A stretch of DNA of 64,000 bases from an uncultured Dehalococcoidia bacterium. Its GTDB lineage: Bacteria; Chloroflexota; Dehalococcoidia; Lucifugimonadales; UBA826. The position numbers and the translations under genes were made by a program. The notes beneath the pieces are model-generated. The model worked only from the letters and a program-made list of their open reading frames with translations. It made no database searches and was not told the DNA's origin. The stretch is taken from the NCBI GenBank assembly GCA_964409595.1, contig CAYPDR010000022.1, positions 20,399 through 84,398 on the forward strand. Reading direction: 5' to 3'. Shown piece after piece: positions 29,758-60,157 of the stretch (position 1 is the first letter of the stretch; every line of letters starts with the position of its first letter).

Positions 29758-31590
29758 ATGTGTGGAATAGCGGGGTATATTGGTTCCCGGCATTTGCAGG
29801 AAGGGATTCTGCAATTATGCCTAGAGCTAATGCATAGAAGAGGACCGGATCATCAGGGCTATTTCCATGATTCGCCTCGAGAAGGGCGTAACATCTATCT
29901 TCTCAGTAGTAGGCTAAGTATCATTGACTTGGATGCTAGATCGAACCAGCCTTTTTTGATGGGTTCCTCGGCGATCGCGTTTAACGGAGAACTCTACAAC
30001 TACCTTGAAGTAAAAACCCAATTCATATCCAGGGGCCACAAGTTCAGGACTAAATCTGATACGGAAGTAGTTTTGAAGGCGATTAATGAATTAGGTTTGG
30101 ATTCCTTAGACACTTTTGAAGGTATGTTTGCATTCGCATTCTATAATCGTGACACGCATGAATTTTTCTTAGCCAGGGATCGTTTTGGGGAGAAGCCTCT
30201 TTACATTTATAGAGATGAAACCGGGATTTACTTCGGGTCCGAAATAAAATACATAAAAGCTCTATTAGGGAAGCCATTAAAAGTTAACTATGATCACCTT
30301 TATCGATATTTGGTCAACGGATATAAAGCGCTCTACAAGCAGCCCAACACGTTTTTTGTCGGAGTGAGCGAAGTTCCGGCAGCTTCGCTGCTTTCAATAG
30401 ATGAAAATGGAACCGAGACTATTCGCCGATATTGGGAGCCTTCATTTAATCAGAATTGTGACATGAGCTATAAAGAAGCCGTGCAACTAACGAAAGAGAA
30501 GTTGATTCGATCGGTTGAACTAAGGTTGAGGGCAGATGTACCCCTCGCTTTTTGCATGAGTGGCGGAGTCGACTCCAATGCTCTAATTTCGATTGCTAAA
30601 AATGTGTTCGATTACGATGTGCATGGATTCACCGTAACTAATACAGATTCGAGGTACGAGGAACAAGACATGGTCGATCATGCTGTTTCGGAATTAGGTA
30701 TAAAGCACACCTCCGTGCCGGTAACTGTAGACAGATTTATACCGCAGCTAAGAACTCTCGTTAAGCAGCATGATGCACCTGTGTTCACCATTAATTACTA
30801 TGCACATTGGCTACTTATGGAAAAAATCCGAGATTATGGATACCGAATTTCTGTAAGTGGAACGGCAGCCGACGAGCTATTTACCGGATATTATGATCAT
30901 CACCTAGCATATTTGTTTGAGATCAAGAACGACCAAAAGTTATTTACTGATTCCATAAAGGCATGGGAAAAGTATATTAAGCCCATAGTGCGGAATCCCT
31001 ATCTCAACAATCCATATTTGTTTTTAGATAATCCTCAACAAAGAGGGCATATTTTTCTGGATTCGGAGGAATTCGCTAAATATTTGAATACTGACTGGGA
31101 CGAGCCATTCACCGAATCTCATTATACAGACAGTCTGCTAAGAAATCGTATGCTCAATGAGATATTTCACGAAGCTACTCCCATGATTTTGCACGAAGAT
31201 GACCTGAATGCTATGTATTTTTCTATCGAAAACAGGTCTCCCTTCCTTGATAGAGATTTGTTTGAGTTTTGTAACAGTGTCCCTTCCCAATACCTTGTGA
31301 GAAACGGATTTGCCAAAGTATTATTGCGCGACGCTTTGGAAGGCATTGTGCCTAAGAAAATTCTGGCGGAGAGGCGAAAAGTTGGGTTCAATGCTCCGAT
31401 AAGGTCTTTCTTAGATTTGGAAGACATAAATGTTAAGTCAATGTTATTGGATGATAGTCCTATTTATGAACATATCAAAAGAGACAAGATCGAAAAATTG
31501 CTGCTGGAAAAAAACATATCAGAACCTAACAGCAAATTTATTTTTTACTTTCTCTCAAGCAAACTGTTTTTAGAGTTGTTTGATAGTTGA
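29758..31590 (+). CDS. asparagine synthase (glutamine-hydrolysing) family amidotransferase, copy 1
   Basis: MCGIAGY (Ntn Cys2) and PP-loop CMSGGVDSNA. Length is 610 aa. Confidence 0.85.
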   Translation: MCGIAGYIGSRHLQEGILQLCLELMHRRGPDHQGYFHDSPREGRNIYLLSSRLSIIDLDARSNQPFLMGSSAIAFNGELYNYLEVKTQFISRGHKFRTKSDTEVVLKAINELGLDSLDTFEGMFAFAFYNRDTHEFFLARDRFGEKPLYIYRDETGIYFGSEIKYIKALLGKPLKVNYDHLYRYLVNGYKALYKQPNTFFVGVSEVPAASLLSIDENGTETIRRYWEPSFNQNCDMSYKEAVQLTKEKLIRSVELRLRADVPLAFCMSGGVDSNALISIAKNVFDYDVHGFTVTNTDSRYEEQDMVDHAVSELGIKHTSVPVTVDRFIPQLRTLVKQHDAPVFTINYYAHWLLMEKIRDYGYRISVSGTAADELFTGYYDHHLAYLFEIKNDQKLFTDSIKAWEKYIKPIVRNPYLNNPYLFLDNPQQRGHIFLDSEEFAKYLNTDWDEPFTESHYTDSLLRNRMLNEIFHEATPMILHEDDLNAMYFSIENRSPFLDRDLFEFCNSVPSQYLVRNGFAKVLLRDALEGIVPKKILAERRKVGFNAPIRSFLDLEDINVKSMLLDDSPIYEHIKRDKIEKLLLEKNISEPNSKFIFYFLSSKLFLELFDS

Positions 31591-32720
31591 AAACAAACAT
31601 TTCCTATTGCGTCAAATGTATTATTCCCGATACCAGGCCCGGTATCAAAATATACACTGATGGGATTTGTTCAGCTTGCAAGTCTCATGAGCGAAAAGGT
31701 GTTGAGACTGACTGGGAAGTACGCCGGGAAGCGTTTACAACGTTAGTGTCACAGGTAAAAAAGCTAAATCGTGACTATGATTGCGTTATTCCAGTCAGCG
31801 GAGGTAAAGACAGTACTTGGCAGGTAGTAAAATGCCTTGAATACGGATTGCATCCTCTGGCAATTACTTGGAGATCACCTTCCCGTAATGAAGTAGGTGC
31901 ACGCAACTTAGAAAATTTAATTTCTCTTGGCGTTGACCATATTGATTTCTCTATAAATCCTCACGTAGAGAAGAAATTTATGCTTGTGTCGTTGGTTGAA
32001 GCTGGTGACTGTGCAATTCCAATGCATATGGCAATATTCAATATTCCACCTATGATGGCATTGAAAATGAATATACCTTTGATTATATGGGGGGAGAACC
32101 CTGCAGAAGAATATTCTGGTCAATATAAAGACCTGCTAGGGCACAGGCTTGATGAAAAATGGTTTAAAAAATTTGGAGTTACTCAAGGAACAACCGCCTT
32201 GAATTGGGAGTCATCGGAGTTGTCTGCCGAGGAACTTACTCCTTACTTCGGTCCAACTGACGAACAACTTTCCGCAGGCGGTATAAAGGGTGTATTTCTA
32301 GGATACTATTTCGATTGGGATCCAGAAAATAGCCTTGAGATGGCAGAATTAAATGGGTTCGAGAGAAGTTCTAAAGGGCCGAAAACGGGATTTTATAACT
32401 ACGCTGACATAGACGAAGATTTCATATCTATTCACCATTATCTCAAATGGTATAAATTCGGGTTTACTCGATCTTATGACAACCTATCATTGGAGATACG
32501 TAATGGAAGATTGAGACGTGATGAGGCTGTGCAATGGCTATTGGATAGGGGAGATGAAACGCCCCATGAGGACATCGTCAAATTTTGCGATTTTGTTGGC
32601 TTAACGAAGCATGAGTTTTATGAAGTAATCGAACAGCATAGAAATCCGAATATTTGGAAGATCGTCGATAACAAGTGGATGATAGAAGGTTTTCTTATTC
32701 CTGATTGGAGATGGATTTGA
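31587..32720 (+). CDS. N-acetyl sugar amidotransferase (WbuX/PseA-type PP-loop enzyme)
   Basis: The N-terminal Zn-ribbon is YCVKCIIPDTRPGI...GICSACKSH, and the PP-loop is PVSGGKDST. TTG start overlapping the asnB-like stop (TTGA). Confidence 0.8.
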   Translation: MKTNISYCVKCIIPDTRPGIKIYTDGICSACKSHERKGVETDWEVRREAFTTLVSQVKKLNRDYDCVIPVSGGKDSTWQVVKCLEYGLHPLAITWRSPSRNEVGARNLENLISLGVDHIDFSINPHVEKKFMLVSLVEAGDCAIPMHMAIFNIPPMMALKMNIPLIIWGENPAEEYSGQYKDLLGHRLDEKWFKKFGVTQGTTALNWESSELSAEELTPYFGPTDEQLSAGGIKGVFLGYYFDWDPENSLEMAELNGFERSSKGPKTGFYNYADIDEDFISIHHYLKWYKFGFTRSYDNLSLEIRNGRLRRDEAVQWLLDRGDETPHEDIVKFCDFVGLTKHEFYEVIEQHRNPNIWKIVDNKWMIEGFLIPDWRWI

Positions 32721-33097
32721 AACTTGAGGCGAATCAACCACCAAGAAAGTTCAATGTTGGAGGGAAGTTTCCAATTCAACTCTCGGATTGTGGCAAAGTA
32801 ATATTGGAAGCTAATGAATTAGTCACATTAGAACATGAATCTGGTTCATGTTACGACGTTGTTTGTAAAGATTGGGGATTTTATGCAACACCATCTTTAA
32901 ATGGAAGACTCTTAAAATTCAACCTTCGCGCTGTTTTGGTGAGGAATAAGGGAGGTCATTATTTCATCTTGATGGTAGTAGAAGGCAAAGAGCTCGAATT
33001 TCAGAAATATTTGGATTTATCGGACAATGAAATTGTAGCTTGGATGGACTCTGATAAAGCACTTGCAACCGCTCCAACCAATAAGGAAGATTTTTGA
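32705..33097 (+). CDS. hypothetical protein (130 aa)
   Basis: The ORF is translationally overlapped on both sides (with the amidotransferase and the methyltransferase), which argues that it is real. I recognise no motif. An alternative ATG lies at 32711. Confidence 0.5.
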   Translation: MEMDLKLEANQPPRKFNVGGKFPIQLSDCGKVILEANELVTLEHESGSCYDVVCKDWGFYATPSLNGRLLKFNLRAVLVRNKGGHYFILMVVEGKELEFQKYLDLSDNEIVAWMDSDKALATAPTNKEDF

Positions 33098-33918
33098 TTG
33101 AAGATTGTTTGAGATGCCCATGTGAAGGCAGATACTTTGGAGAGTGGCATACATATAGCGCTCCTCCTAAAGGTGAAGGGAATTTTAAGTTTAAGAGTAA
33201 TGGATCTTACTCGAGAACGATTAGCAAATGTGCCGTATGTAGTCATTTTGTATCTGTTCATGAAATGAGTACAGGTTCACTTTATTCTGGTGACTATGTT
33301 AACGCTAACTATGGAGGTATAGAGGGTATAAAGAAGTCATTCGAGAGAATTGTCAATATGGATTCCTCTAAATCAGACAACTATTGGAGAGTTGAGCGGG
33401 TTTGCCAATTTGGCGAAAGAAACTTTCCGACCGAATCTAATAACAGATCAATTCTTGACGTTGGTTCGGGACTTTGTGTGTTCCTTCACGGTATGAAGCA
33501 ACGCGGCTGGAATTGCACTGCTTTGGACCCCGATAAAAGATCCGTGGAGCACGCACGAGACTATGTAGGGGTTAATGCCGTTCGCGCTGACTTTATGACT
33601 GTTGAAAATCTTGGTCGTTACGATGTAATCGCCTTCAATAAGGTTCTTGAGCACGTAGACGATCCGGTGAACATGCTTTCGAAATCTTTAAATTTATTGA
33701 ATCCGAATGGGTTTATATACTGTGAGGTTCCGGATGGTGAAACCGCCGCCGGGATATCGCCGGCAAGAGAGGAATTTTTCATAGAACATCCTCACATATT
33801 CAGTGCTGCATCGTTGATGCTTATGGTTTATCGGGCAGGGTTAATTGTTAAAGACTTTCAACGTATCACTGAACCGAGTGGTAAACACAGCTTAATTACA
33901 TTTATGACTTTGACTTGA
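33094..33918 (+). CDS. class I SAM-dependent methyltransferase with N-terminal Cys-rich (zinc-ribbon-like) segment
   Basis: CLRCPCEG...CAVCSH, then SAM motif I ILDVGSGLCVF and the post-I/II block DVIAFNKVLEHVDDP. Confidence 0.8.
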   Translation: MIEDCLRCPCEGRYFGEWHTYSAPPKGEGNFKFKSNGSYSRTISKCAVCSHFVSVHEMSTGSLYSGDYVNANYGGIEGIKKSFERIVNMDSSKSDNYWRVERVCQFGERNFPTESNNRSILDVGSGLCVFLHGMKQRGWNCTALDPDKRSVEHARDYVGVNAVRADFMTVENLGRYDVIAFNKVLEHVDDPVNMLSKSLNLLNPNGFIYCEVPDGETAAGISPAREEFFIEHPHIFSAASLMLMVYRAGLIVKDFQRITEPSGKHSLITFMTLT

Positions 33919-34279: not shown

Positions 34280-35740
34280 ATGAAAAATAAAAGTCCGCGA
34301 ATATTATTCCAAGTTAAAGCACCAATACGCCAGATTGCAGAGACACTTAAGAATAAACAGGGCTGGGAAATTTATGGTTACTACGGCGGTCCCATATCCG
34401 ATCATGCTGTAAACGAATGTTCGGGAACTCTAAACTTATATGAAATTATTGAGCGCTCTAAACTTTCCCAGGTGCCAGAAAACATCATTGCCAAATGCCG
34501 AGAATTAGAAGACGAATATGACATTAACCTAGCAGACGTGATAGCTGCTGACCGCCACCTAGGTATTAGATGGGTAACTGGGGGTTTGTATCATCCAGGA
34601 AAGTTATCCAGGATGCCATACGAAAAACATCTTCAAATAATATTAGATGTTTTTACCGCTTTCAGAAAGTATTTAGACCAAATAAATCCGACAATAGTGT
34701 GTTCAGATCAAGTAGCGTCGTTTGTGGGTGCTATCTCATTTGAGATATGTAGAAAAATGGGAATTCCCATTTACGGTGTTATGCCCCTTGGAATCTATGA
34801 GAATTATTTTTATTGGCAAAGAGATAGGGCGGCAATTGTTCCAGGGCTAGAGGAAAATTATCTGAGTCAGAGATTGTCACAAGCTGATTGTGATAGTACG
34901 AGGGCAGAAATAGTTTTGGATGGGAGAGTTAGAGGAGTTACGCAGCTTACTTTGCAAAAAGGTAACTTATTTGATTTGCTTAAGAAGGTAGTGAGGATAA
35001 CAAAAAAACACCTTATTGTAACGCTAGCAAGGGGGGATCGGGCTCCAGGGGGTATCAACCTTTCAAATAGGCTGACCTATTTGCTCCGGAATTTTTTGGG
35101 ATTCCGGAAAGAAATGAGGCGAAAGTACGAACCCGTGGAGAAATTATTGAACTCAAGTTATATCTATTACCCATTGCACTACGAACCGGAGGCCTCTCTA
35201 AACGGATTAGAACCTCATTTCTCTAATCAAATGTATGCTATTGAGCTTCTCTCAAGGAGTGTGCCCGTAGGGATCAACGTTCTGGTTAAGGAACATCCCT
35301 CCGGAATTGGAAACAGACCGTCGTATTGGATCGACATTATTGAGAAATTCCCAAGAGTGAAACTTGTCCATCCCCTCGAAAATTCTATTGACTTGATTAA
35401 GCATTCCATCGCTACCGCTACTATTACTGGGACATCGGGATTTGAGGCGGCCCTTCTTGGGAAGCCGGTTATTAGCCTAGGTCCCAACTACAGATACAAC
35501 TTTATCAACTATGTTACGTACGCAAATGACATTAATAGCTTAAGAAAGTTGATTAAAGATATATGCAACGATGAACACCTCCTTGATTTGAAGAAGAATG
35601 CCGCCCATTTGAGAAAAGCAGTTGAAATGACATGTTTTAGGTTAGATGATCGGCTAGATGATCGGATCTCTTTTGCCAGGAATCCGTCTCAGGAATCTGT
35701 TGAAATAGCAGCCGATGAGCTTTTGAAATTGGTAGTGTAA
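34280..35740 (+). CDS. capsule polysaccharide biosynthesis family protein (PF05159; KpsS/KpsC/LpsZ-like glycosyltransferase)
   Basis: YYPLHYEPEASLN...VLVKEHPSGIGNRP...TITGTSGFEAALLGKPVISLG is colinear with the KpsS pattern PLQ..D.Q...KHHP...TINST.G.EALL.GKPV as I recall it. Confidence 0.7.
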   Translation: MKNKSPRILFQVKAPIRQIAETLKNKQGWEIYGYYGGPISDHAVNECSGTLNLYEIIERSKLSQVPENIIAKCRELEDEYDINLADVIAADRHLGIRWVTGGLYHPGKLSRMPYEKHLQIILDVFTAFRKYLDQINPTIVCSDQVASFVGAISFEICRKMGIPIYGVMPLGIYENYFYWQRDRAAIVPGLEENYLSQRLSQADCDSTRAEIVLDGRVRGVTQLTLQKGNLFDLLKKVVRITKKHLIVTLARGDRAPGGINLSNRLTYLLRNFLGFRKEMRRKYEPVEKLLNSSYIYYPLHYEPEASLNGLEPHFSNQMYAIELLSRSVPVGINVLVKEHPSGIGNRPSYWIDIIEKFPRVKLVHPLENSIDLIKHSIATATITGTSGFEAALLGKPVISLGPNYRYNFINYVTYANDINSLRKLIKDICNDEHLLDLKKNAAHLRKAVEMTCFRLDDRLDDRISFARNPSQESVEIAADELLKLVV

Positions 35741-35899: not shown

Positions 35900-36868
35900 T
35901 TGAATTTAAATAATAAGACCTTAATGTTGACCGGAGGAACTGGTTCTTTCGGATGGAAATTCGTTGAAATAGTTCTTGAACACTATTCTCCAAAGAAGCT
36001 AATCGTTTTCAGCAGAGACGAATTAAAACAAAGCGACATGAGTAATAAATTCCAGGGATCGGCCCTCCGTTATTTCATCGGAGATGTTCGCGATAAGGAT
36101 AGACTGCAGAGAGCTATGGACGGGGTTGACTATGTTATTCATGCCGCTGCATTGAAGCAGGTACCTGCATGTGAATACAATCCTATGGAAGCAGTTAAAA
36201 CCAACGTTTTTGGGGCCCAAAACGTTATAGATGCTGCTATCGATCAAGGAGTGAAGAAAGTCGTTGCGCTAAGCACGGATAAGGCGGTAAATCCAGTAAA
36301 CCTTTACGGGGCCACAAAATTATGTGCAGAAAAACTGTTCATTCAAGCTAATGCCTATTCCGGCAGGGAGGGAACAAGGTTTAGTTGTGTCAGATACGGA
36401 AATGTGGCAGGTAGTAGAGGTAGTGTGATTCCAGTTTTCGAGAGTCAAAGAGAAGAGGGAGTCTTGACTATTACCGACAAAAGGATGACAAGATTTTGGA
36501 TTACCTTAGGTCAAGGAGTTAATTTCGTGATTTCTTGCCTTTCTGATATGCAAGGCGGGGAGGTGTTTATTCCAAAAATCCCGAGTATGAAAATAGTTGA
36601 TCTTGCATCCGCAATCGCTCCCGGCTGCGAGTTTAATTTTGTAGGCATTAGGTCAGGTGAGAAACTTCACGAAGTTTTGATATCTAAGGATGAATCCCGC
36701 ACGGTTCTGGAAGTAGGTGATAAATACGTCATTTGTCCACCCCACCCGTGGTTCGCCCAACCCCATTACCCTCAAGGGAGATTGGTGGAGGAGGAATTTG
36801 AATATCGAAGCGATAATAACGATCAGTGGATTTCCGCTTCAGAGTTCGATAGATTAAATCTCTCATAA
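35900..36868 (+). CDS. pseB: UDP-N-acetylglucosamine 4,6-dehydratase (inverting), PseB/FlaA1
   Basis: LTGGTGSFG, SRDELKQ, FIGDVRD, NLYGATKLCAEKLF, RYGNVAGSRGSVIPVF, RMTRFWIT and IPKIPSMKI. It is nearly colinear with Helicobacter FlaA1 as I recall it. Confidence 0.92.
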   Translation: MNLNNKTLMLTGGTGSFGWKFVEIVLEHYSPKKLIVFSRDELKQSDMSNKFQGSALRYFIGDVRDKDRLQRAMDGVDYVIHAAALKQVPACEYNPMEAVKTNVFGAQNVIDAAIDQGVKKVVALSTDKAVNPVNLYGATKLCAEKLFIQANAYSGREGTRFSCVRYGNVAGSRGSVIPVFESQREEGVLTITDKRMTRFWITLGQGVNFVISCLSDMQGGEVFIPKIPSMKIVDLASAIAPGCEFNFVGIRSGEKLHEVLISKDESRTVLEVGDKYVICPPHPWFAQPHYPQGRLVEEEFEYRSDNNDQWISASEFDRLNLS

Positions 36869-36904
36869 ATATTCTTAAACTAATATGCAATTAAAGTTGA
36901 CCAG

Positions 36905-38098
36905 GTGATAACTTCTGACCTAGCGATAAACGGTGGGAAGCCTGTACGTGAGTCAATGTTGCCCTACGGGCGCCACTTCCTCGACGATCATGATCTAGAC
37001 TCCGTGCTGGAAGTTTTGAAGTCTGATTGGCTGACCACAGGACCCAAAGTTAGGGAATTTGAAAAGGCACTTTGTTTTCGTACAGATGCCAAATACGCAG
37101 TTGCCGTGAACAGTGGTACGGCGGCACTACATTCAGCGATGTACGCTTTGAACATTACACCAGGAGATGAAGTTATAGTGCCTGCTATGACCTTCGCAGC
37201 CACCGCAAATTGTGTTCTGTACCAAGGGGGTACCCCAGTATTTTCCGATGTACGACGCGAAACCTTGCTTATAAACACTGAAAGTATGGAATCGCTAATA
37301 ACATCGCGTACCAAGGCCGTTATTTCAGTTGACTATGCTGGGCAACCTTGTGACTACGATGTTTTAAGAAATATATGCGATAAGTACGGGCTGATACTCG
37401 TGGCAGATTCGTGCCACTCCTTAGGGGGGACATATAAAGGTCGAGCTGTTGGTTCCGTTGCTGATATTAACGCGTTCTCATTCCATCCAGTCAAACACGT
37501 GGCAGCCGGAGAAGGTGGAGCAATTACTACTGATAACGAATCGATTTACAATCGAATAAGAGCTTTTAGGAATCATGGTATACAAACTGACCATCATCAA
37601 AGAAGCGTGGAAGGTGCCTACAAGTATGATGTATCAGATCTAGGTTTTAATTACCGAATTCCCGACATAAATTGTGCTTTAGCGCTAAGTCAGCTCGAAA
37701 AGCTAGAGAAATCCGTTGCTAGGAGACAGGCGATTGCAAAAATATATGACTCAGCGTTTCACTCAATGGATTGTATTACACCCCTTAATCAGGTCCCTGA
37801 CGTTGACAACGCCTACCATCTCTATGTGATAGGGCTATCTAAGGAGTTTCCGAAATTTGACAGGGACTACTTATTCAAAGCCCTGCGTGCTGAAAACATA
37901 GGGGTTAACGTGCATTATTTGCCTGTATATTTGCACCCTTATTACAGAAAATTAGGGTATGACGAAGGGATTTGCCCCACCGCTGAGGATGTCTATAAGA
38001 ACATTATTAGCTTACCGATATTTCCGAGTATGGATGAAAAAGACATTGCCGATGTATTGGAAGCCGTTACAAAAATTGTGGGCTCCCACAACAACTAA
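36905..38098 (+). CDS. pseC: UDP-4-amino-4,6-dideoxy-N-acetyl-beta-L-altrosamine transaminase, PseC-like
   Basis: DegT family with FSFHPVKHVAAGEGG (PLP Lys) and SVDYAGQP. It lies directly downstream of pseB. Confidence 0.85.
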   Translation: MITSDLAINGGKPVRESMLPYGRHFLDDHDLDSVLEVLKSDWLTTGPKVREFEKALCFRTDAKYAVAVNSGTAALHSAMYALNITPGDEVIVPAMTFAATANCVLYQGGTPVFSDVRRETLLINTESMESLITSRTKAVISVDYAGQPCDYDVLRNICDKYGLILVADSCHSLGGTYKGRAVGSVADINAFSFHPVKHVAAGEGGAITTDNESIYNRIRAFRNHGIQTDHHQRSVEGAYKYDVSDLGFNYRIPDINCALALSQLEKLEKSVARRQAIAKIYDSAFHSMDCITPLNQVPDVDNAYHLYVIGLSKEFPKFDRDYLFKALRAENIGVNVHYLPVYLHPYYRKLGYDEGICPTAEDVYKNIISLPIFPSMDEKDIADVLEAVTKIVGSHNN

Positions 38099-41113: not shown

Positions 41114-41174
41114 ATGAATTGACTATGCTCGAGTTATTTTCTGAAGGTTCTGGTATTTAATTGAAACTATTTCT

Positions 41175-41741
41175 ATGATGTCACAAAAAAGGATTAGTGG
41201 AGAACGGTTGGACTTAGCAGTTTTTAGCAACGTTTACATCACCAAAGATTATCTCGGATGGATTAATGATCCTGAAGTGACTGAATATTTGGAAGTAGGA
41301 AATACAACTCAAACAATGGGGTCATTAAAGGAATACACAGAAAAATTTAATGATGAGAATAACTATATGTTTGCCATAATTGCCAAACCGGAGGATATAC
41401 ACATAGGGAATGTAACTCTTCAGAATATCGACTGGTTTCACAAATATGGTACTGAGGGGATCATGATAGGCAGAAGGGATTATTGGGGCAAGGGATACGC
41501 GACAGAGGCAAGAAGAATGATGCTACGATTCGCGTTTTTTGATCTAGGATTGAATAAAGTGGTATCGGGTGCTTTCGCAGATAATCTTGCTGGCATTAAG
41601 AGTAACGCGAAACTTGGGTATCAAAGGGAAGGATTATTGAGGAAGCAGAAGCTACTAAACGGCCAGTATAGGGATGAGGTGCGGCAAGGGTTACTCAAGG
41701 AAGAGTTCATATTGAATGACGAACGAAACAAATCTTTGTAA
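41175..41741 (+). CDS. GNAT N-acetyltransferase (RimJ/RimL-like)
   Basis: YWGKGYATEARRMMLRFAF is a typical GNAT motif A region. Length is 188 aa. Confidence 0.75.
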   Translation: MMSQKRISGERLDLAVFSNVYITKDYLGWINDPEVTEYLEVGNTTQTMGSLKEYTEKFNDENNYMFAIIAKPEDIHIGNVTLQNIDWFHKYGTEGIMIGRRDYWGKGYATEARRMMLRFAFFDLGLNKVVSGAFADNLAGIKSNAKLGYQREGLLRKQKLLNGQYRDEVRQGLLKEEFILNDERNKSL

Positions 41742-41855
41742 TTGATGCTTAATATCCAAAGTTTTATGGTCAATTGGACGGGCTTCATAAGTTTAATGAA
41801 CTGGTTTTGATTAATAAATATTGTTTGTTTTTCGTAAGGATTCAGTGAAATCACG

Positions 41856-43928: not shown

Positions 43929-43951
43929 AAATTTGCCAGTTGTCATGTTAA

Positions 43952-44437: not shown

Positions 44438-44463
44438 AAATAATTCCAAGAGTGGGGATATAA

Positions 44464-45492: not shown

Positions 45493-45506
45493 CATGAAGC
45501 AAGAAT

Positions 45507-46565: not shown

Positions 46566-46614
46566 GGACAGATCTATTGAACTGTAGTTATACAAGTGTT
46601 CATGATAGTTATTC

Positions 46615-55719: not shown

Positions 55720-57027
55720 ATGAAAATTTTGGTTTATGGGCTTGGCTACGTAGGGGCCGTCACATCCGCTATGTTGGCCAAGGAGGGACATACCGTTTTA
55801 GGAGTAGATAATAACCGAGCAAAGGTGGATTTGATAAACAATGGAGAATCTCCGGTAAATGAGCCGTACTTGCGATCAGTTATAAAGGAACAGGTCCTTT
55901 CAGGAAGGTTGACTGCTTCAAACAACACCAAAACAACCGATGACCTAGATGCGGTGTTTATTTGTGTAGGTACTCCAAGTAATGATGACGGCGGCATGGA
56001 TGATTCCCAGGTTCGTAATGTGATCGCGGAAATAACTGATCTTAGGCAGCAAATCAATTCAAATCTAGCCGTTTTTAACAGAAGTACATGTTTACCATCG
56101 ACTCATATGTGGGCTGTTACAAATTTGAAAAAGAGGTTTCTAGGCCAGGTGGAATATTTTGTTCATCCTGAGTTTCTCCGCGAAGGTTCAGCTTTAAGTG
56201 ATTTCAAGTCTCCTCCACTTATTTTGTATGGGTCAGAAGAGGAGGTTAATACCGATTTGGCGGAGATTTCTAAATTGTTGTATCCAGGCGTTACGTCGCC
56301 GGTTCATGTTGTGGGAATTAAAGAAGCTGCGGTTGCTAAATATGCTTCCAATGCTTTTCACGCGGTAAAAGTGACATTTGCCAATGAGATTGGCTCGATC
56401 TCTAAGTCAGTTGGCGCAGATGCGAGATCAATATTAGAAATTCTCTGTTGCGACACAACCTTGAACATTTCTGAAGCTTACCTGAAGCCAGGCATGCCAT
56501 ACGGAGGTAGTTGCCTTCCCAAAGATGTCAGTGCACTTGTTGGTCTTGCCACTGGGCTGGGTACCACAGCCCAAATGTTGGGAACTTTGAACGAATCAAA
56601 TGACAATCAGATCTCGTCAATTTGTGAGCGACTCTTGGCAGAGAAGCCTGAGTCAATAGGCTTCCTGGGCATATCCTTCAAACAGGGGACTGATGATCTC
56701 AGGGGTAGCCCATTTGTAAGAATTGCCCGATGCTTGATCGATAAGGGTGTTAAGGTCAGTATTTATGATAAAGACGTGGATCTTGAACGTTTTACAGGAG
56801 CCAACCTGACTTTTCTGAATTCTCTGATACCAGAATTGAATGAAATCACCTTCTCCCGTGCGTCAGAAGTGATCGATAATTGTGAAATAGTGCTGTTAGC
56901 ACATCGCAATGCGTTGCATGATCTCAAGCTAACTCCACCAAAACCGAATGTAAAAATTTTTGACTTAGTTGGTTTGTCTAATGATGAATTGTCGGGTTTT
57001 GGCGACGTGGAAGGACTCTACTGGTAG
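55720..57027 (+). CDS. GDP-mannose 6-dehydrogenase-like (AlgD family)
   Basis: MKILVYGLGYVGAV...[60 protein letters not shown] and C-terminal EGLYW. It is colinear with P. aeruginosa AlgD as I recall it (AlgD ends EGICW). I prefer ATG 55720 over the overlapping start at 55672. Confidence 0.8.
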   Translation: MKILVYGLGYVGAVTSAMLAKEGHTVLGVDNNRAKVDLINNGESPVNEPYLRSVIKEQVLSGRLTASNNTKTTDDLDAVFICVGTPSNDDGGMDDSQVRNVIAEITDLRQQINSNLAVFNRSTCLPSTHMWAVTNLKKRFLGQVEYFVHPEFLREGSALSDFKSPPLILYGSEEEVNTDLAEISKLLYPGVTSPVHVVGIKEAAVAKYASNAFHAVKVTFANEIGSISKSVGADARSILEILCCDTTLNISEAYLKPGMPYGGSCLPKDVSALVGLATGLGTTAQMLGTLNESNDNQISSICERLLAEKPESIGFLGISFKQGTDDLRGSPFVRIARCLIDKGVKVSIYDKDVDLERFTGANLTFLNSLIPELNEITFSRASEVIDNCEIVLLAHRNALHDLKLTPPKPNVKIFDLVGLSNDELSGFGDVEGLYW

Positions 57028-57062: not shown

Positions 57063-58211
57063 TTGCCAAACGTCAGTGGATACACAGACCGTATCCGGCT
57101 TCTTGAAGAAGTTTCGAAGTTGATAGGAAAAGTCACTCTTTTGGTCGGCGTCGTTGACGCTGCTTTGCCAGTAGGTGAATCTAAGAAGTTCGTTTTAAAC
57201 GAAGTTCGTTTTGTGCGAGGATTTCGACCGCTGAATCTATGGAGAACTGCTCGAGCAGCCTTGGCTGTAAATGATGTGGACATTTTCCACGATACGTCCG
57301 GGAACCTCATACTAGTATTTTTGCTACTATTTCGTAGAAAATTGCGACCTGCATTGATCACTTCATTTTTTGCATTGGAGAAATGGAGGATCGAAAATGT
57401 TTGGAAGAGGAATGGCTACAGCACCATACGGCTTCTTCTGGAGCCATCCACACGAAACATGTATTTCGGAGCCTTTATTCAGCACATTATGGCGCTTGTT
57501 TCCGATCGGATTGTTTTGCAATCAGCAGGACTTTTTGGAAGATTAACTGAGTACATAGGGATCGACGAAAAAAAAATCAGTGCTCTTCCCAACAATGTGG
57601 ACTGCGATTTTTGGCGTGCTAACTCAAGAAAGATTGGGCGGGCAAGATGTTTTCAAATGTTGTATGTCGGAGGTCTAGATCATTCACGGGGTGTGTTTGC
57701 TGTTTTGGAAGCTTTGGGCAAGTTGAAGGAGGAGGCATGGACAGTGAACTTAGTTTTGGTAGTGAAACAAGGTATTGGAGGAGAGGGACCGATAAATGAC
57801 TTTGTAGCCCGAAATAGTTTGGGAAATTGTGTCGAATTTGTCAGCGGACTATCCAGAGGGGAAATGTTAAACACATACAACAATTCTGACGTGCTGGTGT
57901 ATCAAACCATAAATGATGGTTCTCCGAGAGTGGTTTTGGAAGCTCTATCTTGCGGGTTACCTGTTGTTGCTTCACATCATCCCGGTATTAATGTTCTTGA
58001 CCCAGGAGCTCGTTTTATAAAATTTACCGATTACTCTGATGTGGATGCGATAGTCAGAAACGTGAGTGAACTTTTTAGAGATAATGAACTTCGTTCAGAT
58101 TTAAGTGAAGTAGGTCAGGAAGAAGTGAGGGCGAACTTCAGTAGTGAAAGAGTCGCGAAACAATACGCCAATTTTTATCAAAACATGTTATCTGAACAGA
58201 CATGTGGTTAG
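57063..58211 (+). CDS. glycosyltransferase family 4 (N-terminus possibly truncated by a T8 tract)
   Basis: NDGSPRVVLEALSCGLPVVAS. The TTG start is formed by the 3' end of the T8 run at 57057-57064. An ATG at 57049 would be in frame only with nine Ts. Confidence 0.8.
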   Translation: MPNVSGYTDRIRLLEEVSKLIGKVTLLVGVVDAALPVGESKKFVLNEVRFVRGFRPLNLWRTARAALAVNDVDIFHDTSGNLILVFLLLFRRKLRPALITSFFALEKWRIENVWKRNGYSTIRLLLEPSTRNMYFGAFIQHIMALVSDRIVLQSAGLFGRLTEYIGIDEKKISALPNNVDCDFWRANSRKIGRARCFQMLYVGGLDHSRGVFAVLEALGKLKEEAWTVNLVLVVKQGIGGEGPINDFVARNSLGNCVEFVSGLSRGEMLNTYNNSDVLVYQTINDGSPRVVLEALSCGLPVVASHHPGINVLDPGARFIKFTDYSDVDAIVRNVSELFRDNELRSDLSEVGQEEVRANFSSERVAKQYANFYQNMLSEQTCG

Positions 58212-58249
58212 CTATGCTTCAGGAATCGTTCTAGCAGGTAGAGGTTAAT

Positions 58250-60157
58250 ATGTGCGGGATCGCAGGAGTTCTTAGATTCGATGGCAAGATCGCGGAAAGC
58301 CAGACGATTCAAGACATGAATCTTTCTCAACGCCATCGGGGGCCTGATGATGAAGGTGTGTTCGTAAATGGGCAAATTGCCCTTGGTCTTGCCCGCCTTT
58401 CTGTAATGGATACGTCAGAGAATGCGAAACAACCAATATTCAACGCTACGGGCGATGTCGCTGTAGTGTTTAACGGGGAAATCTACAATTTCGCAGAAAT
58501 CAAAAATCTTCTTTATGAGAATGGGCACGCCTTCGTATCAAACGGTGATGCCGAAGTTTTGCCCCATGCTTACGAAGAGTGGGGTATGCCAGGAATGCTT
58601 TCCCGCCTTAAAGGGATGTTTGCATTTGCCTTATGGGATCAGGAACGTGAATCATTGTTTCTCGTTAGGGATAGATTGGGAGTGAAACCATTGTGCTATG
58701 CAGTAAGCTCCGATTCGATGGAATTTGCTTCGGAGCCTCATGCGTTGAGTTGCTACCAACAACTCGTCACCAAACTTGATTTGGATGGGTTAGAAAGCTA
58801 TTTGTCGTTAGGATATACCGACACTCACACTAACTTTGTGAAAGGGGTAATGTCTGTGTCTCCCGCCTGTTATTTGGAAGTTAAAAATGGGGTTGTTAGA
58901 GAGTTTAAGTATTGGTCTCTTCCTGAGGTGGTATTAAATCCACGTAATCCTACCTTTCAGCAATATGTTGACGAAGCGGACGCTTTACTTTTAAATGCTG
59001 TTGAAAGCAGAATGAAAAGTGATGTTCCTTTAGGAGTGTTTCTCAGCGCGGGTATAGACTCCAGTCTAATAGCAGCCTACGCATCTCGAAACAGTAGAGG
59101 ACCGATAAAAACATTCACAGTTGACTTTACAGACTCTCCAAAGACTGAATCAGAGAATGAATCGCATCTAGCATCTCAGGTCGCTAACAGGTACGGCACT
59201 GATCACAAAATCCTACAAGTGGGAGCTGACTCGATAGGTTCTCTTCCTAGACTTGTTCATAATGTTTCAGAACCATTCTCCGACCCCTCGCTACTTTCAA
59301 CATACATGATTTGCAAGGCCGCGAGAGAGGATATTACTGTAGCACTCACGGGGGATGGAGGTGATGAGTCTTTTGCCGGTTATTCAAACGTTAATGTTGC
59401 CCGTTTAGCGGATAGGGTAATGGGATGGTGCCCTAATTACATCAGAAAACCAACTTTTGAGCTATTACTTGAGATTTTCCCAGATAATCCAAGGCTATCC
59501 AAGATTAGAACACTTTTGAAATATGGCACGAATGACATTGGACATATCTACGATAATCCACAACTGTGGAATCGAAAAATTAGAGATAAATTGCTTGCTG
59601 AAACTAGAGATAATTCAGATTTGCGGTTGCCGTTTAAGGGGAAACTAGATCAGTTTGAACAATCGCTGACCAGGAAACTATCTTATGTGGATTTCAACTT
59701 GAGACTTCCTTGCGGGTATCTTAAAAAAGTAGATATAGCTAGTAGTTCGTTATCGATGGAGATAAGATCTCCTTTCCTAGATCACGAATTAGTCGAATAT
59801 ATGTGGAATGTTCCTGATGAGTTGAAGATCTACAAAGGTAGACAGAAAGGCTTTCTTAGGTATTTAGCGAGTAATTACCTACCTGAGGCCATAGTAAGAA
59901 GAAAAAAAACAGGGTTTTCCCCCCCGATCTCTGAATGGCTTAGGACACGGTGGAGGCCAATCCTCATTCAACTTGTAGAAAATGGCTTAGCCAGACGGAA
60001 AGGCTATTTTCGACCAGACATAATCCGGGACCAAGTTGATGATCACCTGAGCCTAAGGCGAGATAATGGGATGAGGCTTTGGCAACTGATTTGTCTAGAA
60101 GTATGGTTCCAAATATTTGTTGACAGGACCTTAAAACCCGATGACTCCCTTTTCTGA
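58250..60157 (+). CDS. asparagine synthase family amidotransferase, copy 3
   Basis: MCGIAGV and PP-loop variant FLSAGIDSSL. Length is 635 aa. Confidence 0.85.
   Translation: MCGIAGVLRFDGKIAESQTIQDMNLSQRHRGPDDEGVFVNGQIALGLARLSVMDTSENAKQPIFNATGDVAVVFNGEIYNFAEIKNLLYENGHAFVSNGDAEVLPHAYEEWGMPGMLSRLKGMFAFALWDQERESLFLVRDRLGVKPLCYAVSSDSMEFASEPHALSCYQQLVTKLDLDGLESYLSLGYTDTHTNFVKGVMSVSPACYLEVKNGVVREFKYWSLPEVVLNPRNPTFQQYVDEADALLLNAVESRMKSDVPLGVFLSAGIDSSLIAAYASRNSRGPIKTFTVDFTDSPKTESENESHLASQVANRYGTDHKILQVGADSIGSLPRLVHNVSEPFSDPSLLSTYMICKAAREDITVALTGDGGDESFAGYSNVNVARLADRVMGWCPNYIRKPTFELLLEIFPDNPRLSKIRTLLKYGTNDIGHIYDNPQLWNRKIRDKLLAETRDNSDLRLPFKGKLDQFEQSLTRKLSYVDFNLRLPCGYLKKVDIASSSLSMEIRSPFLDHELVEYMWNVPDELKIYKGRQKGFLRYLASNYLPEAIVRRKKTGFSPPISEWLRTRWRPILIQLVENGLARRKGYFRPDIIRDQVDDHLSLRRDNGMRLWQLICLEVWFQIFVDRTLKPDDSLF

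What the first reader, a model, noticed from the sequence alone, without database searches (positions are those of the whole stretch)
29758..60157. Three AsnB-family glutamine amidotransferases matched by three nucleotide-sugar 6-dehydrogenases in one locus
AsnB-like genes lie at 29758-31590, 38248-40065 and 58250-60157. All keep the Ntn Cys (MCGIAG) and a PP-loop (SGGVDS, SGGLDS, and the variant SAGIDS in copy 3). The locus also encodes three uronate-forming dehydrogenases: WbpA/TviB-like at 18263-19603, Ugd at 19638-21035 and AlgD-like at 55720-57027. AsnB-like enzymes in O-antigen loci (for example WbpS of Pseudomonas aeruginosa, as I recall) are associated with converting sugar carboxylates to carboxamides. 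A 3:3 match suggests a glycan rich in uronamides. Alternatively, because copies 1 and 2 sit inside the NulO modules, the target could be the C1 carboxylate or acyl side chains of the nonulosonates, which would be unusual chemistry.
Basis: inference. Interest (0 to 1): 0.6.

Follow-up and report, generated by a model that had tools for sequence, protein, structure and literature searches.

The report
Three sugar amidotransferases, three different jobs
One long surface-sugar operon carries three intact asparagine-synthetase-like enzymes that do not pair with the three sugar-acid dehydrogenases: two belong to conserved nine-carbon (sialic-acid-like) sugar modules where their substrate is unknown, and only the third looks like an ordinary sugar-acid amidating enzyme.

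Summary
Three intact AsnB-like genes and three NDP-sugar 6-dehydrogenases lie at the stated coordinates, in a roughly 47-kb one-strand glycan operon.

The 3:3 uronamide pairing is not supported.
- The three AsnB copies are only 28-30% identical to each other and fall in three old subfamilies.
- **Copy 1** belongs to a 610-aa family found in many phyla. In 44 genome loci, its orthologs have neuB in 38 and an NDP-sugar dehydrogenase in only 3. In 33 loci with other AsnB-like genes, neuB appears in none.
- **Copy 2** relatives have NeuB, PseB or PseC in 31 of 42 loci and a dehydrogenase in none.
- **Copy 3** sits in a GT4-AsnB-GT4 triad conserved in 5 of 5 homologous loci. An AlgD-like GDP-mannose dehydrogenase is nearby in 2 of those 5 and in the window. 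It is the one plausible uronamide enzyme.
- The Ugd gene is followed by a UXS-type decarboxylase, so its product probably goes at least partly to UDP-xylose.

All three copies keep the glutaminase residues and the PP-loop. None keeps the Glu348 of E. coli AsnB, and none reaches the housekeeping AsnB score. The acceptors of copies 1 and 2 remain unknown. They could be the C1 carboxylate of the nonulosonic acid (NulO) or an acyl side chain.

The parts
29758..31590 (+). AsnB-like copy 1 (610 aa), the subfamily linked to neuB cassettes
   Evidence: Pfam GATase_6/7 + Asn_synthase. Homologs of 61-65% identity and 610 aa occur in many phyla. neuB is present in 38 of 44 ortholog loci. E. coli Glu348 is Thr here and in 57 of 60 family members.
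31587..32720 (+). WbuX/PseA/PtmG-type N-acetyl sugar amidotransferase (acetamidino synthase); its start overlaps the copy 1 stop by 4 nt
   Evidence: TIGR03573 at 315 bits against a cut-off of 203. Orthologs lie immediately downstream of copy 1 orthologs with no HisH/HisF in the locus.
32711..33097 (+). Conserved 128-aa ORF of unknown function between WbuX and the methyltransferase
   Evidence: Translation. Gene called in L002, L003 and L004. tblastn hits in 18 related loci. No Pfam match.
33094..33918 (+). SAM methyltransferase, in a position like PtmH
   Evidence: Methyltransf_23/11/12/25. Conserved after type I WbuX. PtmG/PtmH precedent in PMC13317340.
22033..29528 (+). NulO module A core: CMP-transferase, GFO oxidoreductase, DegT aminotransferase, SDR, GNAT, formyltransferase-like, polysaccharide deacetylase, NeuB
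   Evidence: Pfam and NCBIfam. The same cassette occurs in L003-L007 and in 25 of 44 genome loci.
34280..35740 (+). Candidate NulO transferase
   Evidence: Weak Capsule_synth. Weak hits to the BFO_1060-family glycosyltransferase and TIGR04396 surface carbohydrate protein, both below cut-off.
35900..38098 (+). PseB and PseC (start of NulO module B)
   Evidence: TIGR03589 at 513 bits and TIGR03588 at 458 bits, both above cut-off.
38248..40065 (+). AsnB-like copy 2 (605 aa), the subfamily linked to Pse-type modules
   Evidence: Pfam. The 69%-identical homolog in L177 has identical synteny. NeuB, PseB or PseC is present in 31 of 42 related loci and a dehydrogenase in 0 of 42.
40082..47322 (+). Rest of module B: GFO, GNAT, CMP-transferase fused to a class-III aminotransferase, GNAT, NeuB/PseI-like, ATP-grasp ligase, PIG-L deacetylase
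   Evidence: Pfam and NCBIfam.
18263..19603 (+). NDP-HexNAc 6-dehydrogenase (Cap5O/WecC/WbpA-like)
   Evidence: TIGR03026 at 428 bits. Best PDB hit Cap5O at 2e-64.
19638..21035 (+). UDP-glucose 6-dehydrogenase (Ugd/TuaD-like)
   Evidence: NCBIfam TuaD at 375 bits, below cut-off; TIGR03026 at 404 bits.
21029..21985 (+). UXS-type UDP-glucuronate decarboxylase. The Rossmann motif lies upstream of the first canonical start codon at 21101.
   Evidence: Best PDB hit human UXS1 at 5e-95, against 8e-36 for the next family. Frame reading.
55720..57027 (+). AlgD-like GDP-mannose 6-dehydrogenase
   Evidence: Best PDB hit 1MFZ at 1.8e-90. Homologs near copy 3 relatives in L010 and L174.
57063..58211 (+). 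GT4 glycosyltransferase, upstream member of the conserved triad
   Evidence: Pfam Glycos_transf_1. Homologs of 32-39% identity lie upstream of the AsnB gene in all 5 related loci: directly in 3, and separated by one or two genes in L010 and L173.
58250..60157 (+). AsnB-like copy 3 (635 aa), candidate uronamide-forming enzyme
   Evidence: Pfam Asn_synthase at 7.5e-81. Nearest curated model is TIGR03108 at 499 bits, below the 817 cut-off. Conserved GT4-AsnB-GT4 synteny.
60141..61322 (+). GT4 glycosyltransferase, downstream member of the triad; its start overlaps the copy 3 stop by 17 nt
   Evidence: Pfam. Homologs of 36-40% identity lie downstream of the AsnB gene in all 5 related loci, directly in 4.
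16845..18109 (+). HTH regulator and NusG-like protein at the head of the one-strand operon
   Evidence: HTH_24 and NusG Pfam hits.

Best explanation
Positions about 16.8-63.6 kb form one co-directional surface-glycan operon. It holds two nonulosonic-acid (NulO) modules, a block of GT4 glycosyltransferases and an ABC exporter.

The three AsnB-like genes encode complete two-domain amidotransferases. The N-terminal Ntn glutaminase releases ammonia from glutamine. The PP-loop domain adenylates a carboxylate on the acceptor, and the ammonia converts it to a carboxamide. This mechanism is established for the family and is inferred here from conserved residues.

The three are not paralogous spares and do not pair with the three dehydrogenases. 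Each belongs to a different old subfamily wired to a different module.
- **Copy 1** is a fixed component of a widely distributed cassette: CMP-transferase, GFO, DegT, SDR, GNAT, NeuB. It is usually followed by an acetamidino-forming WbuX system and a methyltransferase. It therefore tailors the NulO of module A. The most economical acceptor is the only carboxylate that cassette creates, C1 of the NulO (inferred).
- **Copy 2** belongs to Pse-type modules that also carry an ATP-grasp ligase, a PIG-L deacetylase and extra GNATs. It most likely amidates a carboxyl on the Pse derivative or on an amino-acyl substituent added after de-N-acetylation (inferred).
- **Copy 3** is the middle gene of a conserved GT4-AsnB-GT4 triad next to an AlgD-like GDP-mannose dehydrogenase. 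It most likely makes a hexuronamide, as WbpS is proposed to do (inferred).
For: **Intact enzymes.**
- Cys1, Arg49, Asn74, Gly75, Glu76, Asp98, the PP-loop, Asp351/Glu352, Lys429 and Lys449 (Arg in copy 1) are conserved in each copy. They are invariant or nearly invariant across about 60 relatives of each.

**Three subfamilies.**
- The copies are 28-30% identical to each other.
- They fall in separate clades in an NJ tree.

**Copy 1.**
- In a scan of 185,579 species genomes, 44 loci carry an ortholog of at least 41% identity. neuB is present in 38, and upstream within 3 kb on the same strand in 33.
- The full 5-gene core is present in 25 of the 44, a WbuX-like gene in 30, and an NDP-sugar dehydrogenase in 3.
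- The 33 loci with other AsnB-like genes from the same scan have no neuB.

**Copy 2.**
- The 69%-identical homolog has identical synteny.
- Of 42 related metagenome loci of at least 7 kb, 25 have NeuB, 17 PseB, 17 ATP-grasp, 17 PIG-L and 0 a dehydrogenase.

**Copy 3.**
- All 5 homologous loci keep both flanking GT4 orthologs.
- 2 of the 5 have the AlgD-like dehydrogenase, and none has a called NeuB-family gene.

**Dehydrogenases.**
- DH3 is AlgD-like.
- Ugd is followed by UXS.

**Precedents.**
- WbpS-type amidotransferases are linked to HexNAcAN formation, and an H. pullorum wbpS knockout gave a truncated HexNAc-HexNAcA disaccharide instead of the amidated pentasaccharide (PMC6025236, citing King et al. 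2010).
- PtmG and PtmH are the acetamidino synthase and N-methyltransferase acting on legionaminic acid (PMC13317340; bioRxiv 10.64898/2026.04.20.719630).
Against: - No biochemical datum identifies the acceptor of any copy. Genomic context shows linkage to a module, not the atom modified.
- No NulO C1 carboxamide turned up in a full-text search for NulOs with the word carboxamide, and searches pairing asparagine synthase with NulO terms found no characterised enzyme of this kind. The C1 carboxylate is normally part of what CMP-NulO synthetases and transferases recognise.
- The closest subclade to copy 2 apart from L177 (51-53% identity: L008, L093-L095, L139) shows no NeuB or Pse genes in the available flanks.
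- Only 2 of 5 copy-3 homolog loci show a dehydrogenase within 8-10 kb.
- I could not obtain WbpS, WbqG or WbtH sequences, so a WbpS-type placement of copy 3 is untested.
- Dehydrogenase 1 (HexNAcA-forming) has no assigned consumer in the window. Its product could still be amidated by any copy.
Confidence: 0.6

Rival explanations
1. Each AsnB-like enzyme amidates the product of one of the three NDP-sugar dehydrogenases, giving a glycan rich in uronamides (HexNAcAN, GlcAN, ManAN).
For: There are three of each in one operon. WbpS-type enzymes are linked to uronamides (PMC6025236). Copy 3 lies two genes from DH3.
Against: - Copy 1 orthologs have a dehydrogenase nearby in 3 of 44 loci, and copy 2 relatives in 0 of 42.
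- Both families instead track NeuB, PseB and PseC.
- Ugd is followed by a UXS decarboxylase, so UDP-GlcA is probably consumed at least partly to make UDP-xylose.
- DH1 and DH2 lie 9-20 kb from copies 1 and 2, with whole NulO modules in between.
Confidence: 0.1
2. Copy 1 has no acceptor of its own. It serves as the glutaminase or ammonia source for the adjacent type I WbuX acetamidino synthase, replacing the HisH/HisF pair that canonical WbuX systems use.
For: - Type I WbuX orthologs (45-63% identity) lie immediately downstream of copy 1 orthologs, often with overlapping stop and start. Those loci have no HisH/HisF next to that WbuX (L022 and L024 carry a pair further downstream beside a second, type II WbuX).
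- Distant type II WbuX genes are nearly always preceded by HisH-HisF.
- The window has a 4-nt overlap between the two genes.
Against: - Copy 1 orthologs also occur directly upstream of complete HisH-HisF-WbuX sets (for example L020, L028, L042, L048, L053).
- They also occur with no WbuX at all (L006/L007, L017, L027, L034, L036, L040, L044, L045, L059).
- The synthetase domain, including the PP-loop and the PPi-binding Lys/Arg, is as strongly conserved as the glutaminase domain. That would not be expected for a mere ammonia donor.
Confidence: 0.12
3. One copy, most plausibly copy 3, is the organism's housekeeping glutamine-dependent asparagine synthetase that happens to sit in the glycan operon.
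For: All three pass the generic TIGR01536 cut-off (383, 288 and 424 bits against 267), and public sources name their relatives asparagine synthase. Asp351/Glu352, which bind the aspartate amino group in ASNS models (PMC6748925), are conserved.
Against: - All three score far below the AsnB equivalog PRK09431 (203, 199 and 251 bits against 499).
- Glu348 of E. coli AsnB corresponds by alignment to Glu364 of human ASNS, where E364A and E364Q are inactive (PMC6748925). It is Thr in copy 1 and Asp in copies 2 and 3.
- Each copy keeps glycan-gene synteny across phyla, with overlapping reading frames.
- Whether the genome has another asnB or a tRNA-dependent route could not be checked from one window.
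Confidence: 0.06
4. Copies 1 and 2 are amide- or lactam-forming ligases like beta-lactam synthetase, TsnB9 or lasso-peptide cyclases. They would join a NulO amine to a carboxylate rather than adding ammonia.
For: The best PDB hit of copy 1 is the hydroxyamidotransferase TsnB9 (7YLZ, 7e-42, full length). Lasso cyclase and macrolactam cyclase models give partial hits.
Against: Cys1 and the whole glutamine-binding set are invariant or nearly so in both families, which points to glutamine hydrolysis. Scores against the cyclase models are far below their cut-offs.
Confidence: 0.05

Closest known systems
WbpS (P. aeruginosa O6) / WbqG (E. coli O121) / H. pullorum WbpS uronamide-associated amidotransferases
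   Same: AsnB-like enzymes encoded inside glycan loci near an NDP-sugar 6-dehydrogenase and glycosyltransferases. They are proposed to convert a hexuronate carboxylate to a carboxamide, which the next transferase may require (PMC6025236). Copy 3 matches this logic.
   Different: - Orthology could not be tested because no reference sequence was available.
- The neighbouring dehydrogenase of copy 3 is AlgD-like (GDP-mannose), not a UDP-HexNAc dehydrogenase.
- Copies 1 and 2 do not share this context at all.
XrtA/PEP-CTERM-associated amidotransferase (TIGR03108, EPS loci)
   Same: This is the best-scoring specific curated model for copy 3 (full-length match, 499 bits). It is likewise an AsnB-like gene embedded among group-1 glycosyltransferases, with an unknown acceptor.
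   Different: The score is well below the 817-bit cut-off. No exosortase or PEP-CTERM gene was seen among the scanned window ORFs.
E. coli AsnB / human ASNS (housekeeping asparagine synthetase)
   Same: Same two-domain architecture, catalytic Cys1, glutamine-binding residues, PP-loop and PPi-binding lysines.
   Different: Only 26-28% identical, below the PRK09431 cut-off. Glu348 is replaced, Lys376 is lost in all three copies, and Arg387 is kept only in copy 2 (Leu in copy 1, Lys in copy 3). The genes sit in glycan operons.
T. forsythia AsnB (Tanf_01265) in the Pse/Leg-containing O-glycosylation cluster
   Same: A 605-aa AsnB-like gene in a locus that also encodes Pse or Leg synthesis and WecB/WecC. 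Its authors proposed a role in modifying the NulO (acetamidino formation) (PMC6120980).
   Different: - That assignment is only a prediction.
- From my own recollection, not checked here, the T. forsythia glycan also contains a ManNAc-uronamide that could be its real product.
- In the window the acetamidino step already has a dedicated WbuX/PtmG-type enzyme.
PtmG/PtmH (C. jejuni) and the WbuXYZ / WbpG-HisH2-HisF2 acetamidino systems
   Same: The window's 31587-32720 gene meets the WbuX model and is followed by a methyltransferase, as PtmG is by PtmH.
   Different: The window type has no HisH/HisF partner. Instead it is flanked by AsnB copy 1 and a conserved 128-aa ORF.
Ngg/AsnO (NAGGN synthesis) and peptidoglycan amidation (MurT/GatD; LtsA/AsnB on mDAP)
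   Same: The logic is acylation or ATP-grasp ligation of an amino acid, followed by AsnB-type amidation of the remaining carboxylate. This resembles the GNAT + ATP-grasp + AsnB content of module B. This comparison rests on my own knowledge and inference.
   Different: TIGR03104 scores are below cut-off for all copies. The scaffold here would be a NulO, not a peptide.

Membership tests
AsnB-type class II (Ntn) glutamine amidotransferase with PP-loop synthetase domain | N-terminal catalytic Cys directly after Met, plus the glutamine-binding residues (Arg49, Asn74, Gly75, Glu76, Asp98 in E. coli numbering) | tested here: met
   All present in the three copies and in 59-61 of about 60 relatives of each.
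AsnB-type class II (Ntn) glutamine amidotransferase with PP-loop synthetase domain | PP-loop SGGxDS and the PPi-binding lysines (Lys429, Lys449) | tested here: met
   SGGVDS, SGGLDS and SAGIDS; the SAG variant is seen in 7 of 60 relatives of copy 3. Lys429 is conserved. Lys449 is Arg in the copy 1 family.
Housekeeping asparagine synthetase B (NCBIfam PRK09431) | Score at or above the curated cut-off of 499 bits | tested here: not met
   203, 199 and 251 bits.
Housekeeping asparagine synthetase B (NCBIfam PRK09431) | Catalytic Glu348, corresponding by alignment to human Glu364, which is required for activity (PMC6748925) | tested here: not met
   Thr in copy 1 (57 of 60 in the family). Asp in copy 2 (54 of 61) and in copy 3 (59 of 60).
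Housekeeping asparagine synthetase B (NCBIfam PRK09431) | Complements asparagine auxotrophy / aspartate-dependent activity | not testable with these tools
   Needs an experiment.
WbpS/WbqG-type uronamide amidotransferase | Orthology to P. aeruginosa WbpS or E. coli O121 WbqG | not tested
WbpS/WbqG-type uronamide amidotransferase | Encoded next to an NDP-sugar 6-dehydrogenase and glycosyltransferases of the same glycan | tested here: inconclusive
   Copy 3: an AlgD-like dehydrogenase two genes upstream; homologs have it in 2 of 5 loci; flanking GT4 genes in 5 of 5. Copy 1: 3 of 44. Copy 2: 0 of 42.
WbpS/WbqG-type uronamide amidotransferase | The product glycan contains a hexuronamide | not testable with these tools
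   Needs glycan NMR or MS.
XrtA/PEP-CTERM system amidotransferase (TIGR03108) | Score at or above the cut-off of 816.9 bits | tested here: not met
   Copy 3 at 498.6, copy 1 at 254, copy 2 at 212 bits.
NAGGN amidotransferase AsnO (TIGR03104) | Score at or above the cut-off of 570 bits | tested here: not met
   261, 205 and 380 bits.
WbuX/PseA/PtmG N-acetyl sugar amidotransferase (TIGR03573), for the neighbour gene 31587-32720 | Score at or above the cut-off of 203.2 bits | tested here: met
   315.3 bits over the full model.
WbuX/PseA/PtmG N-acetyl sugar amidotransferase (TIGR03573), for the neighbour gene 31587-32720 | Accompanied by HisH/HisF-like ammonia-supplying subunits (WbuY/WbuZ) | tested here: not met
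   There are no HisH/HisF homologs in the window, nor beside the type I WbuX gene in any of the 18 related loci that carry one; L022 and L024 have a HisH/HisF pair further downstream beside a second, type II WbuX.

The most novel reading that the evidence does not exclude
The copy 1 family is a dedicated nonulosonic-acid amidotransferase. It would convert the C1 carboxylate of a NulO (free, CMP-activated or already transferred) into a carboxamide. Combined with the adjacent acetamidino synthase, this would yield a neutral or cationic 'nonulosonamide'. I found no report of such a sugar class. Methods that rely on the alpha-keto acid, such as DMB labelling or CO2-loss fragments, might miss it. 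The family occurs in many bacterial phyla, including SAR11 relatives, so such sugars would be widespread.
Probability: 0.22. Interest if true: 0.8.

Novelty: new variant of a known kind. Interest (0 to 1): 0.5.

Why it matters
AsnB-like genes in glycan loci are routinely annotated as asparagine synthase, and their products are ignored when glycan structures are predicted. This analysis shows that the label hides at least three distinct, conserved, module-specific subfamilies.

The copy 1 family is about 60% identical across phyla from Chloroflexota to Acidobacteriota, and about 35-42% in SAR11. It is nearly as tightly tied to neuB as the core NulO enzymes, yet no function has been assigned to it. 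That makes it a concrete, testable candidate for an undescribed modification of bacterial sialic-acid-like sugars, which shape surface charge, phage recognition and immune recognition.

The analysis also corrects a tempting numerical argument. Equal gene counts did not mean pairing.

Tried and rejected
- **Organism identity.** Exact look-ups returned only unnamed metagenome and MAG records. Rfam and tRNA scans gave only tRNA-Arg. The best hint is that module A is most similar to a Dehalococcoidia MAG (L020, 52-82% identity per gene).\n- **Phylogeny against WbpS, WbqG and WbtH.** Not possible because no reference sequences were reachable. I used E. coli AsnB and curated HMM cut-offs instead.\n- **Literature.** Searches for a NulO C1 amide, or for AsnB in Pse/Leg clusters, found only the T. 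forsythia prediction. A search for AsnB active-site numbering with E. coli residue names found nothing. Human ASNS numbering from PMC6748925 was used instead.\n- **The 128-aa ORF and ORF 50852.** Pfam gave nothing for either.\n- **Structure prediction of copy 1.** Considered and dropped. It would only confirm the AsnB fold, and coordinates cannot be inspected for the acceptor pocket.\n- **Copy 1 as a mere ammonia donor for WbuX.** Considered and down-weighted, because copy 1 also occurs with complete HisH-HisF-WbuX sets and with no WbuX.\n- **First MAFFT run.** It timed out and was repeated with faster settings on half of the sequences.

Full report
**1.

ORFs of 610, 605 and 635 aa lie exactly at 29758-31590, 38248-40065 and 58250-60157 on the + strand.
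- Each has an N-terminal class II glutaminase domain (GATase_6/7) and a C-terminal Asn_synthase domain.
- All begin with MCGIAG. The PP-loops are SGGVDS, SGGLDS and SAGIDS.

Three UDPG_MGDP_dh-family dehydrogenases are also present.
- The best solved-structure match of 55720-57027 is P. aeruginosa GDP-mannose 6-dehydrogenase (1.8e-90, against 1.5e-50 for UDP-glucose dehydrogenases).
- 18263-19603 is closest to Cap5O and archaeal UDP-ManNAcA dehydrogenases.
- 19638-21035 is Ugd/TuaD-like.

**2. Layout of the locus**

From 16845 to at least 63600 every gene is on the + strand. Pfam and NCBIfam scans give the following order.
- **Head of the operon:** an HTH regulator and a NusG-like protein.
- **Early genes:** the two dehydrogenases and an SDR.
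- **NulO module A:** CMP-transferase, GFO oxidoreductase, DegT aminotransferase, SDR, WecD-like GNAT, formyltransferase-like, polysaccharide deacetylase, NeuB, AsnB copy 1, a WbuX/PseA-type amidotransferase (TIGR03573, 315 bits against a cut-off of 203), a 128-aa ORF, and a methyltransferase.
- **Candidate NulO transferase:** 34280-35740, supported only by weak hits.
- **NulO module B:** PseB and PseC (both above cut-off), AsnB copy 2, GFO, GNAT, a CMP-transferase fused to a class-III aminotransferase, GNAT, NeuB, ATP-grasp, PIG-L deacetylase.
- **Glycosyltransferase block:** GT4 transferases, an ABC exporter, more GT4s, the AlgD-like dehydrogenase, GT4, AsnB copy 3, GT4, GT4 and an epimerase.

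The SDR after Ugd matches human UDP-glucuronate decarboxylase UXS1 at 5e-95; the next-best family scores 8e-36. Its Rossmann motif lies upstream of the first canonical start codon.

**3. The three copies are old, distinct subfamilies**

- They are 28-30% identical to each other and 26-28% identical to E. coli AsnB.
- In a neighbour-joining tree each groups with its own set of database relatives.
- All pass only the generic TIGR01536 model. None reaches the cut-off for AsnB (PRK09431), the XrtA-associated amidotransferase (TIGR03108) or the NAGGN amidotransferase (TIGR03104).

I aligned each copy with about 60 of its relatives and with E. coli AsnB.
- Conserved in all three families: the glutaminase residues (Cys1, Arg49, Asn74, Gly75, Glu76, Asp98), the PP-loop, Asp351/Glu352 and Lys429. 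Lys449 is conserved in families 2 and 3 and is Arg throughout family 1.
- Glu348 is not conserved. It is Thr in family 1 (57 of 60) and Asp in families 2 and 3.
- The residue that aligns with it in human ASNS is Glu364. The E364A and E364Q variants of that enzyme are inactive (PMC6748925).
- Arg387 is Leu in all 60 members of family 1, Arg in family 2 and Lys in family 3.

My reading is that these are working glutamine-dependent, adenylating amidotransferases whose acceptor is not aspartate. This is inference from conserved residues, not a measured activity.

**4. Copy 1 belongs to a neuB cassette**

Database relatives are 610 aa long and 61-65% identical. They come from very different lineages, with source names including Nitrososphaera, Anaerolineales, Desulfobaccales, Methylomirabilales, Pyrinomonadaceae and cyanobacteria.

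Three long contigs show the same gene order as the window: CMP-transferase, GFO, DegT, SDR, GNAT, NeuB, with or without formyltransferase and deacetylase, then AsnB, with or without the WbuX-like gene, small ORF and methyltransferase.

A scan of one genome per species returned 80 loci. I annotated them by tblastn with the window's proteins.

| Feature in the locus | 44 loci with an ortholog of at least 41% identity | 33 loci with other AsnB-like genes (under 35%) |
|---|---|---|
| neuB anywhere | 38 | 0 |
| neuB upstream within 3 kb, same strand | 33 | 0 |
| neuB immediately upstream | 23 | 0 |
| Full five-gene core | 25 | not counted |
| WbuX-like gene | 30 | 4 |
| NDP-sugar dehydrogenase | 3 | 2 |

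The link is therefore to the NulO cassette, not to uronate formation.

**5. Copy 2 belongs to Pse-type modules**

- Its closest non-self relative (69% identity) has identical synteny: PseC, AsnB, GFO, GNAT, CMP-transferase/aminotransferase fusion, GNAT, NeuB, ATP-grasp, PIG-L, GT4, ABC.
- A metagenome scan gave 80 loci. Together with L008 and L009, 42 loci are at least 7 kb long. Among these, NeuB is present in 25, PseB in 17, PseC in 14, ATP-grasp in 17 and PIG-L in 17.
- NeuB, PseB or PseC is present in 31 of the 42, and an NDP-sugar dehydrogenase in 0.
- In several marine contigs the AsnB gene lies between PseB and PseC or next to NeuB.
- One caveat applies. A 51-53% identical marine subclade (L008, L093-L095, L139) shows other sugar-modifying genes but no NeuB in the available flanks.

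**6. Copy 3 is the middle of a GT4-AsnB-GT4 triad**

- Five homologous loci (41-44% identity) all keep orthologs of both flanking GT4 genes. The 57063-type is 32-39% identical and the 60141-type 36-40%.
- The downstream GT4 directly follows the AsnB gene in four of the five loci. The upstream GT4 directly precedes it in three; in L010 and L173 one or two other genes lie between.
- In the window, the start of the downstream GT4 overlaps the stop of copy 3 by 17 nt.
- An AlgD-like dehydrogenase is nearby in two of the five loci (47% and 39% identity to the window gene). No gene in any of the five was called as NeuB family.
- This fits the precedent in which a uronamide-forming enzyme sits among the transferases that need its product. 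In H. pullorum, a wbpS knockout gave a truncated HexNAc-HexNAcA disaccharide in place of the pentasaccharide that contains HexNAcAN (PMC6025236, which cites King et al. 2010 for WbpS and the E. coli O121 system).
- I could not obtain WbpS-type sequences, so orthology is untested.

**7. Consequence for the 3:3 argument**

- Ugd is followed by UXS. At least part of the UDP-GlcA is therefore probably decarboxylated to UDP-xylose rather than amidated (the routing is inference).
- Dehydrogenase 1 has no AsnB neighbour.
- Only dehydrogenase 3 pairs with an AsnB gene by position and by conserved context.
- Equal counts are a coincidence. Related neuB loci often carry two AsnB-like genes and no dehydrogenase.

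**8. What copies 1 and 2 might amidate**

The family chemistry is adenylation of a carboxylate followed by attack of glutamine-derived ammonia.
- **Module A.** It creates one carboxylate, C1 of the NulO, introduced from PEP by NeuB. I therefore rank C1 amidation first for copy 1. This remains inference, and a full-text search for NulOs with the word carboxamide returned no such sugar. Searches pairing asparagine synthase with NulO terms found no characterised enzyme either.
- **Module B.** It also has a PIG-L deacetylase, an ATP-grasp ligase and two GNATs. A plausible route is de-N-acetylation, ligation of an acidic amino acid, then amidation of its free carboxylate. Family 2 keeps Asp384 and Arg387, which correspond to Asp400 and Arg403 in the human ASNS synthetase site (PMC6748925). 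This is weak support at best.
- **T. forsythia precedent.** Its AsnB was proposed to make the acetamidino group of Pse (PMC6120980). That is only a prediction. In the window, that step already has a WbuX/PtmG-type enzyme followed by a PtmH-like methyltransferase (PMC13317340; bioRxiv 10.64898/2026.04.20.719630).
- **Deacetylase and formyltransferase pair.** The pair in module A parallels the Ca. Kuenenia cluster that yields N-formyl or free-amine NulOs (same preprint).

**9. A side finding on the WbuX neighbour**

Next to copy 1 orthologs there are two kinds of WbuX gene.
- **Type I**, the window's kind (45-63% identity). In most loci it lies directly after the AsnB gene, followed by the small ORF and, in most, a methyltransferase. 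It never has HisH/HisF next to it.
- **Type II** (24-35% identity) is nearly always preceded by HisH-HisF homologs, the canonical arrangement.
- Copy 1 orthologs occur with type I, with type II, with both, and with neither.

Type I may have swapped its ammonia source. Copy 1 itself must still have a function that does not depend on WbuX. The counts are biased because all loci were found through AsnB.

**10. Verdict**

- The features are real.
- Copy 3 is an ordinary-looking member of the glycan-locus amidotransferases.
- Copies 1 and 2 represent conserved, uncharacterised NulO-module variants.
- No chemistry was demonstrated.

Noticed in passing
window 31587-33918; loci L003-L005, L013, L016, L018-L030, L033, L035, L038-L055: Two kinds of WbuX/PseA-like acetamidino synthase lie next to copy 1 orthologs. 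Type I (the window's kind) has no HisH/HisF and is followed by a conserved ~125-aa ORF and, in most loci, a methyltransferase. Type II is nearly always preceded by HisH-HisF homologs. This suggests the ammonia-supply partner was replaced.
   Followed up: partly
window 32711-33097 (+): A conserved 128-aa ORF with no Pfam match sits between WbuX and the methyltransferase and overlaps both neighbours by a few bases. It was missed by the 150-aa ORF list, but it is called as a gene in related contigs and has tblastn hits in 18 loci.
   Followed up: partly
window 21029-21101 (+): The UXS-like gene's Rossmann motif ([12 protein letters not shown]) lies upstream of the first ATG/GTG/TTG after the preceding stop codon. 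The true start is either a non-canonical codon or there is a sequence error at this point.
   Followed up: partly
window 26755-28504 (+): A formyltransferase-like gene and a polysaccharide deacetylase sit next to NeuB; the pair is present in 13 of 44 related loci. This is the same pairing reported for the Ca. Kuenenia cluster that makes N-formyl or free-amine NulOs.
   Followed up: partly
window 41856-43928 (+): A 690-aa fusion of a CMP-sugar cytidylyltransferase domain with a class-III (GSA-aminomutase-like) aminotransferase domain. It is conserved in L177 and in 10 of 42 related loci. The role of the aminotransferase half is unknown.
   Followed up: no
window 34280-35740 (+): A 486-aa protein with only weak matches to Capsule_synth, the BFO_1060-family glycosyltransferase and TIGR04396. 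It is a candidate NulO transferase between the two modules.
   Followed up: no
window 11723-13033 (+) and 14661-16682 (-): A PMT_2-type glycosyltransferase and a 673-aa Wzy_C (O-antigen ligase / O-oligosaccharyltransferase-like) protein lie just upstream of the operon. The glycan could be attached to protein rather than to lipid A-core.
   Followed up: no
window 16845-18109 (+): An HTH regulator and a NusG-like paralog open the ~47-kb one-strand operon. This is consistent with a dedicated antitermination factor for a very long transcript.
   Followed up: no
L004 17826-19226; L009 2552-3970: B12-binding radical SAM enzymes and several methyltransferases accompany the AsnB genes in related NulO loci. 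They may C-methylate the sugar; the SugarBase preprint reports ulosonic acids with an extended carbon backbone in Magnetospirillum.
   Followed up: no
L020 (Dehalococcoidia MAG CAZRSW010000014.1): This is the closest overall match to module A (52-82% identity per gene), and it has a Ugd homolog upstream at 60% identity. This hints that the window comes from a Chloroflexota relative.
   Followed up: no
L049, L050, L054, L055, L058 (Pelagibacteraceae / SAR11): SAR11 genomes carry more distant relatives of copy 1 (33-42% identity). In L049, L050, L054 and L055 these lie in a locus with the neuB cassette; L058 showed none.
   Followed up: no
window 9079-9155 (+): tRNA-Arg (TCT), the only RNA gene detected in the window.
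   Followed up: no
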